Of a DNA stretch of 64,000 nt, positions 56,111-61,980 are shown in pieces; the first letter of the stretch is position 1, and each line of letters begins with the position of its first letter. The stretch spans positions 343,356,001 through 343,420,000 of the forward strand of contig OZ024740.1 of NCBI GenBank assembly GCA_964016885.1. Direction: 5' to 3'. The translations under genes and the position numbers were made by a program. Below the pieces are notes generated by a model. It saw nothing but the letters and a program-made list of their open reading frames with translations. It ran no database searches and was not told where the DNA came from. This stretch comes from Eledone cirrhosa (taxonomy: Eukaryota).

Positions 56111-56285
56111 AACATATATATATATATATAAATATATATATATATATAAATATATATATATATATATATATATATATATATATATATAAATATATATATA
56201 TATATATATATACTGAAGTAAAAGTTAAGTGGAAATATACAAGAGTAAGAGCACTCAGTCCATAGGACGAGTTATTTTTCTCATG

Positions 56286-56335
56286 ACAGGCTGAATGAAT
56301 TGGGGCCCAGAACCCAACGGAACTTGAGTACCCGT
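56286..56335 (+). ncRNA. Decayed hammerhead-like motif
   Basis: ACAGG-CTGAATGA-ATTGGG...CCCAAC-GGAA-CTTGAG-TA-CCCGT. Correct motif order, two core lesions. Confidence 0.4.
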
Positions 56336-56454
56336 TTATGTCACTGTTGTAATTATATATATATGTGGTGGGGTTGCTTGGATGCGTCCATATGCGGTAT
56401 GCCGGTTGAGCACTCTATGCTCCAACAGACAGGGGATTTGCTTGGAAGTCACTA

Positions 56455-56549
56455 GACGTATCTGAGGAACTTGCGAATCCAGAGTCAGGTTCGATCCACA
56501 AATAGATCGGACCTTGAGATGTTCGCCGGAGAAACAATTGTAATACGTT
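56455..56549 (+). ncRNA. Type I hammerhead ribozyme with long stem II
   Basis: ACGTAT-CTGAGGA-[62-nt hairpin: GCGAA/TTCGC, AGGTTCGATC/GATCGGACCT]-GAAA-CAATTG-TA-ATACGT. Confidence 0.8.
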
Positions 56550-57250
56550 AATAAATTGTGTTCCAATGCATCACTGACTCTTCGTTTTCCATATTATATA
56601 TATATATATATATATATATAATATGGAAAACGAAGAGTCATATGTATATATATACATACTACTCTACGTCTGTATACATATATGTATGTATGTATACATA
56701 CATGCATACTATATATACATATATAAATATATATATATATATATATATATATATATATATATATATATATATATATATATATATATATATATATATATAT
56801 ATATATATATATATATATATATATATATATATATATATTTATATATGTATATATAGTATGCATGTATGTATACATACATACATATATGTATACAGACGTA
56901 GAGTAGTATGTATATATATACATACACGTACACATACATATAACACGTATCGGTTTACCGAACATTTATTATAATGCTCGGTTTGTTTGTTTGTAAACAA
57001 ACAGCCCAAATTACACCGTACAGTGTTTAGTGCGTGTATGTATATATATACATACTACTGTACGTCTGTATACATATATGTATATACGTATACATACATG
57101 CATACTTACGTTTGAGTAAGTGCCGTACTAAGAGTGAGAAATGAAATTTCGTTTCATTCTATTCCATTTATCCTTTTCGGTGTGCCCGGCCGACTGAACT
57201 CACACGATATGCGAGTTGGGCAGACGTTCAGCCATCTGGCAGGAAGGTAT

Positions 57251-57293
57251 ACGATGCTGACGATAGCTAATAAGCTTGAAACTAGTACATCGT
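57251..57293 (+). ncRNA. Minimal type I hammerhead ribozyme (R1)
   Basis: ACGATG-CTGACGA-T-AGCT-AATA-AGCT-T-GAAA-CTAG-TA-CATCGT, with a fully Watson-Crick stem I. Confidence 0.9.
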
Positions 57294-57697
57294 TCCTGTG
57301 TCAGTGTTGAACAAAAAAAGGTGACGTGGTTGCCTAAACACTGTACGGTGTAATTCGGGATGTTTGTTTGTTTACAAACAAACAAACCGAGCATTATAAT
57401 AAGTGTTCGGTAAACCGATACATCCTATATGTATGTGTGCGTGTATGTATATATATACATACTACTGTATTTCTGTATACATATATGTATGTACGTATAC
57501 ATACATGCATACTTACGTTTGAGTAAGTGCCGTACTAAGAGTGAGAAATGAAATTTCGTTTCATTCTATTCCATTTATCGTTTTCGGTGTGCCCGGCCGA
57601 GTGAACTCACTCGATATGCGAGTTGGGCTGCTCAGCCGTTGGTGTGCATAAGGAAAGTATATACTTTCAGACTTTCAATCATCTGGCAGGAAGGTAT

Positions 57698-57740
57698 ACG
57701 ATGCTGACGATAGCTAATAAGCTTGAAACTAGTACATCGT
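57698..57740 (+). ncRNA. Minimal type I hammerhead ribozyme (R1)
   Basis: Identical to 57251-57293. Confidence 0.9.
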
Positions 57741-58362: not shown

Positions 58363-58440
58363 ACCACTACCATGGTTTCATCCGTATTTTAAGACATCCG
58401 ATAACAAGGTATGTCCAGAGCTTCGGAATAATCAGGAGCG
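58363..58440 (-). ncRNA. Decayed hammerhead-like motif in a (TA)n-flanked cassette (~58084-58545)
   Basis: Minus strand CTGATTA-T-TCCG...CGGA-T-GAAA-CCATGG-TA. Palindromic stem III, one core change, weak stem I. Confidence 0.45.
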
Positions 58441-58781
58441 AGCTCAAAATAAGACATTTAATTTTCCAAAGTGATCGCGCCAAAAATACATTAAAAAATG
58501 GTTAAGAATCGTGACGTGGCAGCGGGCATATATCTACGACTTCATATATATATGTAAATCTTATATATATATATATATATATATATTTATATATATATAT
58601 ATATATATATATATATATATATATATATTGTTATACTTTGGGAGGGTCATGTTGCCAATAAGAAACACACGCACCAGTTGCTTTCACTTCAATTTATTAT
58701 AATAAATTTATAATAAATTTATAAATTTATAAATTTCTGGTTGGTTGGTTGGTTCCACAACCAGATAGTTGTTTATATATT

Positions 58782-58824
58782 GTCATAGTTCTTTCGTCAC
58801 ACACCCTGTGACCTCTTCAGTGAC
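58782..58824 (-). ncRNA. Minimal type I hammerhead in the PLE 3' UTR (left arm)
   Basis: GTCA-CTGAAGA-G-GTCAC-AGGGTGT-GTGAC-GAAA-GAAC-TA-TGAC. Confidence 0.7.
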
Positions 58825-59309
58825 TGGGGATTCCTTTCTTTGTTTCTGTGCCTCTCCTTTGTTCTGTCCTACGCCATTTTGTTTCTGTGTGTGTGTTGTG
58901 TGCTCAGTCTGCGCATGCGCCACATCCGGGTGTGTGTTTATGTTCATTTATTTATTTGTTTATTTACATGTTACTGGTTGGTTGTTTGTTCTATGTGCGT
59001 GTGTGTTTTCATTTTGTCCTTAATTGTAAGTTGTGATGTTGCTGTTCCACTCATATTTTCTATTTAATTTTGGTTGTAATTCTTTTATGTTTATTGCCTC
59101 TGTAATTTGTCTAAACATTGCGTCTTTTCTGTGTGTAGATTCTATTTTTAATTCTATGTTCTCTAATTTACCCTTGTGTTCTATTTTAGCATGTTGGTAG
59201 AGTACAGATGATTCTTTACTATCTTGAAGGTCTCGCCAGTGTTCATTTATCCGTTCCCCTACACTACGAGCTGTCTCACCTATGTATACTATATACACTA
59301 TAAAATATA

Positions 59310-59579
59310 GTGTACATAGGTGAGACAGCTCGTAGTGTAGGGGAACGGATAAATGAACACTGGCGAGACCTTCAAGATAGTAAAGAATCATCTGTACTCT
59401 ACCAACATGCTAAAATAGAACACAAGGGTAAATTAGAGAACATAGAAATAAAAATAGAATCTACACACAGAAAAGACGCAATCTTTAGACAAATTACAGA
59501 GGCAATAAACATAAAAGAATTACAACCAAAATTAAATAGAAAATATGAATGGAACAGCAACATCACAACTTACAATTAA
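59310..59579 (+). pseudogene. GIY-YIG endonuclease C-terminal fragment (mirror copy on the minus strand at ~59020-59289)
   Basis: YIGETARSVGERINEH...RQITEAINIKELQPKLNRKYEW contains the YIG, R..EH, E and LN motifs of PLE endonucleases. Confidence 0.88.
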
Positions 59580-60257
59580 GGACAAAATGAAAACACACAC
59601 ACGCATAGAACAAACAACCAACCAGTAACATGTAAATAAACAAATAAATAAATGGACATAAACACACACAGACACTTGGATGTGGCGCATGCGCAGACTG
59701 AGCACACAACACACACACAGAAACAAAATGGCGTAGGACAGAACAAAGGAGAGGCACAGAAACAAAGAAAGGAATCCCCGGTCACAGAGTGTGTGACGAA
59801 AGAAATCTGACAATATATAAACAACTATCTGGTTGTGGAACCAACCAACCAACCAGAAATTTATAAATTTATAAATTTATTATAAATTTATTATAATAAA
59901 TTGAAGTGAAAGCAACTGGTGTGTGTGTTTCTTATTGGCAACATGACCCTCCCAAAGTATAACAATATCGGTTTCAACACACGATTTCAGATAAAGAATC
60001 TTGCTAAACAAATTCAGAAACGATATATATATATCATAGATTGAGTTAGAAACTCAAAATAGTCTTTTACAATTAAATAGCTCAAAGAAGGGAATCTTTC
60101 CGAGCCGTGTAATATAATTGGATATATAAGAGGGATGAACACAGATATAAGTATACCTGTATTCCAATTGCAAATGACCAAGTCAGGCAAACCATATTGT
60201 TTTAAACTACATCCCTCTCATATATCCAATTATATATATATATATATATATATATAA

Positions 60258-61980
60258 ATATCTTTAAGTCGTTTGGAAGCCTCGACAATGCAAATGGGTA
60301 AATCTCCGGGTAACAAGATCCTGTGGTGGAGAGAGAGATGTAAGTGGGTGTACCTTGAGATGCGTGGTGTGTAAAGATGTGTAAATGTGTAGAAGAAAGA
60401 AGGGAAGAGTATAAAGGATAAAATAAAAATAACAACACAAGAGAGAGTTACCTTGGGAGAGATTTAATAGTCCCTATATATTTCGGACTCACATCTATCA
60501 ACTGGGTTTTTTTTCCGGGGTAAAGGTTGTCTGTCGGACAGGTGCGAAACGCGTCCTCCGCTGTTTGTTGTTTTGAATATCTGAGGTATTCGGTAGAGCG
60601 CGCGTGCGCTTGAAATGGGCTCGGTCGGGCAGAGGTCAGCGGCCGAATGAGGGAGTGGGGTGGCGCTAGCTGTCAGTCCATTCTCTGCCTGTTTGTTAAA
60701 TGTTACTGTGTGTGTGTGTGCGTGTGTTGTTGTCTCGCTTGAGTGTGTGTGTGTGTGCGTGAGTAGTTGCCTTGTTCCTCTGTATTGGCAGTGTAGTATG
60801 TTCGTATGGTGGAATGCTACTGTGTGTGTGTGTGTGTGTAGTTGTCTCGTTTGTGTGTGCGTGTATTGTGTGTTGCTACATCGTTTGTTAACTTAAACCA
60901 GCCATCTCATTTCGCTTCTCTCTAATCGGTTGTTTATTTGCGGTTGCAGGCTTTTGATAAAAAGTGCTTCCTTGATACGTAACGTGCCGACGTTTCTTTC
61001 AGTCGCTAGAATTGTGACAATGGGCCTTCCGTCTTTGTTTCCGCATTTGTCTATGTGTTTCTGGAAAGACGAGGCCCTGGTTTTAGTGTGTTCCTTGATC
61101 CGGATGTGCAAAGGTCGGATTGTGCTACCTATGTAGTATTGGTTGCACCTGTCACATTCTATCTTATACACGACGTATTTGCGTAGGCAACAGTTCGCAT
61201 GGCGTATCGGGCAGTCTCTGAGGGAGCATGCGTCAGTAGATTTCCCGGGTTTCTTGGAGAGGCATCTTCGCAGGGAGGGGCCCGAGTGGGCCAGGTGGAT
61301 GTCGAGGCCTTCCCTCCGTATAGCCTTGCAGATAGCGTTGGTGGTATTCTCGCCCAGATGTGGAATTTTAAGGAAACACTTGCCTTGGGTGCCTCTCTGT
61401 CTCTTGTGTCTGGTGTCTCCTATTCTGTCTGTGATCGAGGTAGGGTACCCGTTCGTCTCCAGCACCTCGAGTAATCGCTTGGTATGAGTGACACCACTCG
61501 CGGGATCGCTGCATCTGTTTTTGATTCGCGCGATCTCGTTCGTGATGTATCATCTTTTGGCACTGTTAGCGAGGGCGGACTTGTAGTGAACGAACAAGTC
61601 CCTGCAGGCTGCCTTTCGGTAGAAGTTGCAGTGGATCCTTCCCTGTTCCGTAATGTTGATTCGGAAGTCGAGGAGTGCAAGTGACCCGTCTTCGTTGGGG
61701 TGTTCAACACTGAAGTCAATGTTCTCGTCCGTGTTGTTGAACGTCTCATAGATTCTGTTCGCCGTGTCTTGGGAAGATGTGAGGATGAGGATATCGTCCA
61801 CGTGCCTTGAGAAAAAGGCTACGGCGTTGGGGTGGCAGGCGTTGAGTGCCTTGCGTTCGAGGTTGTCCATGTAAGAGATCGCTAGCACACCTGATAGGCT
61901 TGATCCCATGGGCAATCCCGAGGTTTGTTGGTATGTTTGGTCAAGGAATCCGAAGTAGGTGTTGTCGACGACGATGGATA
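60258..61980 (-). mobile_element. 5'-truncated Penelope-like element (RT plus GIY-YIG, Naiad-like), 3' end at (TA)n
   Basis: RT motifs TYFGF..YQQTSGLPMGSSLS, RHVDDIL, LALLD, YRK, followed by the endonuclease VVYKIECDRCNQYYIGSTIRPLHIRIKEH...KEALFIKSLQPQIN. Confidence 0.88.
60893..61978 (-). pseudogene. PLE RT-GIY-YIG reading frame with one in-frame TGA (61550-61552) and HVDD in place of YVDD
   Basis: ORFs 61550-61915 and 60893-61465 are in the same frame, joined by YITNEIARIKNRCSDP...LETNGYP. Confidence 0.85.

What the first reader, a model, noticed from the sequence alone, without database searches (positions are those of the whole stretch)
56111..61980. (TA)n tracts string together a chain of unrelated hammerhead cassettes and PLE ends
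Seen: within ~6 kb, successive TA-separated blocks carry different HHR or HHR-like motifs. These are 56286 (decayed), 56455 (long stem II), 57251 and 57698 (R1), 58363 (-, decayed), 58782 (-, PLE UTR) and half-motifs at 60469-60560. Stem III differs between them but is repeatedly palindromic (CAATTG, CTAG, CCATGG, CGCG, TATA). Smaller chains occur at 13492-14137 and 36204-38720. Inference: several PLE and retrozyme families share a (TA)n target and pile up into ribozyme-dense islands that would fragment read-through transcripts.
Basis: partly seen in the sequence, partly recalled or inferred. Interest (0 to 1): 0.75.

Follow-up and report, generated by a model that had tools for sequence, protein, structure and literature searches.

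The report
Penelope element queue in TA repeats
Seven unrelated jumping-gene insertions, five with a self-cutting RNA motif, sit end to end here because they all land in TA repeats, and their paired ends suggest that the element's enzyme likely starts copying at two fixed U-A-U sites, one for each side of the DNA cut.

Summary
The chain is real, but it is not a special island. It holds seven independent Penelope-like (PLE) or retrozyme-like insertions separated by (TA)n, each from a multi-copy family. Four intact hammerhead cores (56462, 57257, 57704, 58820-) and two decayed ones are confirmed. The '60469-60560 half-motifs' are one degenerate variant and one non-hammerhead. In 1 Mb sampled across the genome there are 110 hammerheads; 60 of 75 independent ones have (TA)n within 200 nt downstream (20 expected), so shared targeting holds. 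The two sides of a TA tract are filled independently (58 observed, 55 expected), so chains are a by-product of load. Only the R1 pair has a matching partner for dimer cleavage, so 'fragmenting transcripts' is unsupported. (TA)n targeting, pLTR hammerheads, palindromic stem III and tails are published. Not found in the papers searched: 62 of 73 two-armed insertions pair one short end with one tail end, and 11 of 12 start sites share 3-7 nt (TAT) with the target. This suggests asymmetric twin priming. The scan found two-armed retrozymes in this genome before.

The parts
56114..56212 (.). (TA)n target tract
56213..56353 (+). Insertion A: inverted tail arm (about 56213-56272) plus hammerhead arm ending at the short end; core 56291 decayed (GGAA). 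Parent element not found
   Evidence: (1970 first-look candidates)
56362..56594 (+). Insertion B: inverted tail arm (about 56362-56427) plus arm with an intact hammerhead (56455-56549, core 56462, predicted cut after 56542) and short end. It is the terminal repeat of a PLE whose longer copies carry an endonuclease-like coding end
56575..56930 (.). Double fold-back: 56621-56640 is the reverse complement of this B copy's end, 56641-56726 the reverse complement of this R1 copy's end, each mirrored about a TA tract (56595-56620, 56727-56838) and carrying the neighbour's own variants
56839..58022 (+). Insertion R1: retrozyme-like 447-bp non-coding unit. Short-end arm on - (56839-57030) plus about 2.2 units on + ending at the tail end; intact hammerheads at 57257 and 57704
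58084..58561 (-). Insertion D: short-end arm on - with decayed hammerhead (core 58435, CTGATTA) plus tail stub on + (about 58529-58561). The family also occurs as tandem units of about 660 bp
58629..60022 (.). Insertion E: head-to-head arms (about 95% identical) of a young autonomous PLE, each with the endonuclease C-terminus and terminal repeat. The - arm has an intact hammerhead (core 58820) and the short end; the + arm has a deleted core and the 55-nt tail
   Evidence: 1241-aa frame in L356
60035..60230 (.). Insertion F: tail-end arm on - (60035 to about 60186) plus short-end arm on +. No hammerhead in this copy; other copies carry one with a CAGAWGA core
60257..61980 (-). Insertion G: single-armed, 5'-truncated PLE with RT (Pfam RVT_1) and GIY-YIG parted by one in-frame stop. 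Terminal repeat 60257-60890 with a degenerate hammerhead-like motif; short end in (TA)n, 5' junction not in TA
58023..58083 (.). (TA)n between R1 and D; further separating tracts at 56354-56364, 58562-58628, 60023-60034 and 60231-60256

Best explanation
The stretch is a queue of seven independent Penelope-like and retrozyme-like insertions that abut one another through (TA)n, each likely made by a PLE enzyme that cuts (TA)n and would prime one DNA end at the RNA's 'short' start site and the other at its 'tail' start site through a U-A-U match. Shown: each block belongs to its own multi-copy family; each family has two fixed 3' ends about 40-100 nt apart; six of seven blocks are head-to-head arms with both 3' ends pointing out into TA; short+tail pairing dominates; the start sites share 3-7 nt with the TA tract; tract sides are filled independently. 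Inferred: nicking of both strands of the self-complementary (TA)n by the GIY-YIG domain, base-paired priming, a dimeric enzyme, trans-mobilisation of the non-coding units R1 and D, and persistence of TA on both sides as a fresh target. Hammerheads sit near TA simply because they lie tens to a few hundred nt upstream of the start sites.
For: Family searches return discrete copies with the same TA-bound ends. 404 of 482 ends abut (TA)n. 62 of 73 two-armed insertions are short+tail, against 36 expected (p 2e-10); 11 of 12 in the evenly spaced sample alone. Shared bases at start sites: B-S 3, D-S 7, D-L 5, E-S 4, E-L 4, G-S 3, G-L 3, F-S 5, F-L 4, R-L 3, A-S 3, R-S 1; the chance of 3 or more is about 0.07 per site. 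TA lies downstream of 84 of 110 hammerheads but upstream of 35. Independent filling: 58 against 55 of 330, 37 against 35 of 750. E, G and B connect to RT/endonuclease coding sequence. Published biochemistry shows two internal start sites bounding the tail, both strands cut and extended, and a predicted dimer (PMC11167929).
Against: 50 of 62 short+tail pairs have overlapping arms, so classic twin priming on one linear monomer cannot explain most; two RNAs, a tandem or a circle are needed. In the one PLE tested in vitro the start site was reported as not homologous to the cut DNA (PMC11167929). A more sensitive occupancy test gave OR 1.7-1.9 before 46 element-internal TA tracts were removed. Family counts per 10 kb are mildly overdispersed (p 0.007). 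R-L and A-S values were read by eye, A-S from one copy; A-L and B-L had no read-through copy. No true empty site was found among 56 insertions. Parents of A and F are unknown.
Confidence: 0.8

Rival explanations
1. One reading: the families pile up cooperatively into selected ribozyme-dense islands that cut read-through transcripts.
For: Four intact cores in 2.4 kb; mild overdispersion of families per 10 kb; OR 1.7-1.9 before internal tracts were removed.
Against: Independent occupancy after cleaning. Overdispersion tracks TA density (rho 0.56). Comparable chains occur in the evenly spaced sample (L226, L260). Two of six motifs are broken while most family copies are intact. Stem III palindromes differ, so no cross-family dimers are expected; low activity is reported for such motifs (PMC4209133).
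Confidence: 0.07
2. (TA)n tracts are fragile (cruciform breaks) and PLE RNAs are captured at host-made breaks rather than at cuts by their own nuclease; the same breaks give the fold-backs.
For: Double fold-back at 56575-56930 copies local DNA, with no element RNA needed. Mirrored flanks at 94 of 1224 TA sites against 27-36 in permutations, complex ones 4 against 0-1. tRNA-headed SINE ends also abut TA.
Against: The ordered short+tail pairing implies a dedicated two-ended complex. E and G encode a Cys-rich linker and GIY-YIG, the arrangement linked to (TA)n targeting in PMC8557442.
Confidence: 0.12
3. The PLE reverse transcriptase itself writes or lengthens the (TA)n by telomerase-like slippage on the U-A-U anchor, so TA is a product as well as a target.
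For: Start sites carry a 3-7 nt AU match; PLE RTs are sister to telomerase (PMC8557442).
Against: TA sites next to recurrent ends are no longer than others (median 46 against 45, p 0.38; p 0.13). No empty site was available to test it.
Confidence: 0.08
4. The TA-joined blocks, or the fold-back stubs, are assembly joins.
Against: Each block has family-typical ends, and the same kind of junction recurs at independent loci, e.g. an E tail end next to a G end in L340. The stubs alone remain open to this reading.
Confidence: 0.04

Closest known systems
C-terminal EN+ Penelope-like elements with a Cys linker (Neptune, Nematis, Hydra clades; Craig et al. 2021, PMC8557442: abstract, passages and the Hydra section read)
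   Same: RT then GIY-YIG, pLTRs, inverted 5'-truncated partner arm, tail often at only one end, hammerhead in the pLTR, (TA)n as preferred target.
   Different: Tails here are about 43-100 nt against the 30-40 described. The one-short-one-tail rule is counted here across seven families. Clades were not assigned by a tree; the Neptune-like look of B and Nematis-like look of E are recalled from motifs.
PAc, the Poseidon PLE of Anolis (Frangieh et al. 2024, PMC11167929: parts 1-2 of 4 read, whole main text)
   Same: Two internal RT start sites bounding the tail; both DNA strands cut and extended; start sites near the ORF start (E and G tails hold the N-terminal codons).
   Different: PAc starts in an AC-rich loop reported as not homologous to the cut DNA and showed no strand difference in start site. 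Here the sites share TAT with the target and the two ends use different sites.
Minimal PLE hammerheads (Cervera and de la Pena 2014, PMC4209133: passages and section 5 read)
   Same: Small palindromic helix III, extra base between positions 9 and 10.1, solo motifs from truncated PLEs, pairs on opposite strands 100-700 bp apart.
   Different: At least 26 motif clusters per Mb here, and an estimated 330,000 cores (225,000-434,000), against about 2,000-9,000 minimal motifs in the genomes quoted there (different descriptors, so not a strict comparison). B has a 62-nt stem II; two families use a CAGANGA core.
Metazoan non-LTR retrozymes (Cervera and de la Pena 2020, PMC7229834: passages; Li, Clavereau and Pollet 2026, 10.64898/2026.07.22.740005: parts 1-2 of 5)
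   Same: R1 (447 bp) and D (about 660 bp) are non-coding tandem units with one type I hammerhead each, proposed to be moved by PLEs.
   Different: Here they show PLE-type short and tail ends in (TA)n. Circular RNA and cleavage were not tested.

Membership tests
EN+ Penelope-like element | RT followed by GIY-YIG in one ORF | tested here: met
   G: RVT_1 and GIY-YIG above cut-off. E: 1241-aa frame with RT motifs and a YIG-type end, RVT_1 below cut-off. B: only the endonuclease end, weak Pfam hit E 0.069.
EN+ Penelope-like element | pLTRs, inverted 5'-truncated partner, optional tail | tested here: met
EN+ Penelope-like element | Type I hammerhead in the pLTR | tested here: met
   B 28 of 30, E 29 of 30; G only a degenerate motif, 0 of 30 canonical
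EN+ Penelope-like element | Coding parent for blocks A and F | tested here: inconclusive
   No ORF seen next to the copies inspected; no dedicated search was run
Neptune / Nematis / Hydra clade | Placement in an RT tree with named references | not testable with these tools
   No labelled PLE reference set on hand. Cys linkers seen: E C-x4-C-x2-C, G C-x4-C-x6-CC
Non-LTR retrozyme (R1, D) | Non-coding tandem unit with one type I hammerhead | tested here: met
   the window's D copy is a broken monomer
Non-LTR retrozyme (R1, D) | Self-cleavage and circular RNA | not testable with these tools
   No RNA run was available for the test
Type I hammerhead | CUGANGA/GAAA/UH core with three stems | tested here: met
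   56462, 57257, 57704, 58820
Type I hammerhead | The same core at 56291, 58435, about 60500 (-) and about 60546 (+) | tested here: not met
   The first two are point-decayed, the third has a family-wide CAGTTGA core and a broken stem II here, the fourth has no core

The most novel reading that the evidence does not exclude
(TA)n-targeting PLEs integrate by asymmetric twin priming: one two-ended complex assigns the short start site to one strand of the cut and the tail start site to the other, each primed by a 3-7 nt, telomerase-like pairing of the target's ATA 3' end with a UAU in the RNA. The rule would be shared by autonomous PLEs of different types and by the retrozymes that ride on them, and would explain the inverted arms and the one-sided tail together.
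Probability: 0.5. Interest if true: 0.62.

Novelty: new member of a known kind. Interest (0 to 1): 0.38.

Why it matters
The island itself is ordinary for this genome. Its value is as a sampler: seven families side by side show the same end rules. How PLEs form inverted arms and tails and how they pick microsatellites is named as open in PMC8557442, and an in vitro system now exists (PMC11167929), so the short+tail and UAU rules are directly testable. The genome also looks very rich in hammerheads (about one intact core per 9 kb) and has young E copies with long open frames, a ready source of a (TA)n-targeting enzyme.

Tried and rejected
Rfam scan: the 150 rows shown were microRNA models matching TA palindromes; 216 weaker rows were not shown, so it says nothing on hammerheads. 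B as a Pol III SINE because of a GGTTCGATCC box in stem II: rejected, since longer copies continue upstream into endonuclease-coding sequence. Cooperative pile-up: not seen, seen, gone once element-internal TA tracts and untestable flanks were removed. PLE-made lengthening of TA: no length difference. Empty sites: none true among 56 insertions; the matches were segmental duplicates or chance neighbours. RNA runs: no RNA holder listed, which is no evidence either way. No reads were laid, so contiguity is untested. Literature: 'Penelope'+'twin priming' gave 3 papers, none on PLE mechanism by title and abstract start; the microhomology search gave 0; the nested-insertion search gave 12 unrelated listings; the search adding 'octopus' gave no paper on this. 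Subscription papers (Arkhipova 2006, Pyatkov 2004; not read) and supplements were not seen and may hold the end rules.
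Full report
Observation. The sequence shows seven blocks between (TA)n tracts from 56114 to 61980. A descriptor scan finds intact type I hammerhead cores at 56462, 57257, 57704 (+) and 58820 (-), and these fold as three-way junctions. The same descriptor gives 1, 0 and 0 hits in three shuffles of 1 Mb. The motifs at 56291 and 58435 (-) are point-decayed members of families that mostly keep the core (16 of 25, 21 of 25). Of the two half-motifs, the TATA one is a conserved but non-canonical motif in the terminal repeat of element G (0 of 30 canonical), and the CGCG one is antisense and has no core.

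What the blocks are. Each block is one copy of a dispersed family. First-look candidates were A 1970, B 2586-3123, R1 1707, D 3410, E 132 by DNA and 29,212 by its endonuclease peptide (related families included), G 2487 and F 2688; these are not copy numbers, and only the best 40 or 150 were scored. G carries RT and GIY-YIG, and a near-full copy has pLTR-ORF-pLTR with an inverted partner (L326). E has copies with frames of 1241, 995 and 868 aa between pLTRs. Longer B copies at three loci run upstream into an endonuclease-like coding end. R1 (447 bp) and D (about 660 bp) are non-coding tandem units. Parents of A and F were not found. Clade names (Neptune-like B, Nematis-like E) are recalled from motifs, not tested. 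The label 'cephalopod' comes from earlier notes of this scan and was not tested.

Shared anatomy. Every family has two fixed 3' ends downstream of the hammerhead: a short end S and a tail end L about 40-100 nt further on. 404 of 482 such ends abut (TA)n. Six of the seven window blocks are head-to-head arms with both 3' ends pointing outward into TA; G is single-armed. After dropping window duplicates, loci fetched with two-arm queries and repeated loci, 62 of 73 two-armed insertions are S+L, 10 S+S and 1 L+L; independent choice predicts 36 (p 2e-10), and the evenly spaced sample alone gives 11 of 12. In 50 of the 62 the arms overlap, so most need two RNAs, a tandem or a circle; in 12 the L arm stays within the tail. 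Comparing TA-ended with read-through copies, 11 of 12 testable start sites (of 14) share 3-7 nt with the tract, always including TAT; two values were read by eye. The chance per site is about 0.07.

Is the association more than chance? One hundred evenly spaced 10-kb stretches hold 110 intact cores in 26 motif clusters, which extrapolates to about 330,000 (225,000-434,000). 89 of 110 lie within 200 nt of (TA)n, against a background of 27.5%; TA is downstream for 84 and upstream for 35. Counting one per family and stretch, 60 of 75 have TA within 200 nt downstream against 20.3 expected from the same stretches (highest of 100,000 simulations 37).

Is it an island? Families per 10 kb are mildly overdispersed (p 0.007) and track TA density (rho 0.56). 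The two sides of a TA site carry recurrent ends independently: 37 against 35 of 750. A more sensitive version gave OR 1.95 and 1.73, but after removing 46 element-internal tracts and keeping the 330 sites with two testable flanks it was 58 against 55, OR 1.15 (0.74-1.80). With about 41% of testable sides occupied, six junctions in a row have a chance near 0.005 per start: uncommon, but expected at many places in 3 Gb. L226 and L260 in the sample are of the same kind, and L226 mixes in tRNA-headed SINEs. TA tracts beside element ends are no longer than others.

Mechanism. Most likely a PLE protein cuts the self-complementary (TA)n on both strands. One ATA 3' end pairs with UAU at S and the other at L; both are extended toward the RNA's 5' side, stop early and are joined, leaving TA on both sides for the next element. 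The end geometry and counts are shown; cutting, pairing, the dimer and trans-mobilisation of R1 and D are inferred, with support from PAc biochemistry (PMC11167929: two internal starts bounding the tail, both strands cut and extended, hammerhead cleavage not required). That paper reports no homology at the start site and no strand difference, which is where these families differ. Transcript fragmentation is unlikely to be the point: such minimal hammerheads are reported to need dimers and to cleave weakly (PMC4209133), stem III differs between families, and only the R1 pair has a matching partner.

A side feature. Between B and R1 lie inverted copies of the last 20 nt of this B and about 85 nt of this R1, each mirrored about TA and carrying the neighbour's own variants. 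This is what a break in (TA)n would leave if both ends folded back, self-primed and were joined. Mirrored flanks occur at 94 of 1224 sampled TA sites against 27-36 in permutations (complex sequence 4 against 0-1). An assembly artefact is not excluded.

Novelty. (TA)n targeting, inverted arms, one-sided tails (PMC8557442; PMC3846280, passages read), palindromic helix III (PMC4209133) and the PLE origin of retrozymes (10.64898/2026.07.22.740005) are in print, and this scan has already reported two-armed retrozymes with fixed ends in this genome. The cross-family S+L count, the TAT anchor and the independence test were not found in searches; subscription papers and supplements were not seen. Verdict: new members of known kinds, an ordinary locus, with one testable mechanistic lead. 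Interest 0.38.

Noticed in passing
window 53960-55217: Another two-armed element with a short end at 53960 and a tail end of about 75 nt at 55217, both in (TA)n, holding an inverted pair of a very common repeat (about 54470-54910). No hammerhead found. It extends the chain leftward.
   Followed up: partly
window 55240-56113: 648-bp unit in 1.35 tandem copies between two TA tracts; the left end recurs at TA elsewhere (L242) and shares TAT with the tract. No hammerhead found.
   Followed up: partly
window 10118-10287; L226 about 9400-9600: The two commonest TA-abutting ends in the sample (clusters 0 and 1) bound one small two-armed block; no hammerhead scored in the window copy. Probably another PLE-type family.
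   Followed up: no
window 4527 (-); L226, L234, L236 and others; F family loci L202-L225: Two families use a CAGANGA core (U4 to A) with a stable stem III and could cleave as monomers.
   Followed up: partly
window about 60465-60500 (-): Family G keeps C3, G8, A9, a GGAT-GTGA-ATCC stem II, GAAA and TATA but has A4 and U6: a conserved core variant or a vestige.
   Followed up: partly
window 15590-15710, 37326-37450, 59243-59356: Long near-perfect palindromes, including (TC)n(TA)n(AG)n, consistent with fold-back at TA or at an arm junction.
   Followed up: partly
L333:3026-3848: A 27-nt piece spanning the predicted cut site of hammerhead B is amplified into a tandem array of about 30 copies ahead of a B short end.
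   Followed up: no
L226 about 8200-8440 and 9600-9960: tRNA-headed SINEs also abut (TA)n, so TA tracts collect more than PLEs.
   Followed up: no
window 770-3662: Two partial non-LTR retrotransposon frames (RT and a C-terminal nuclease-like region) in tandem.
   Followed up: no
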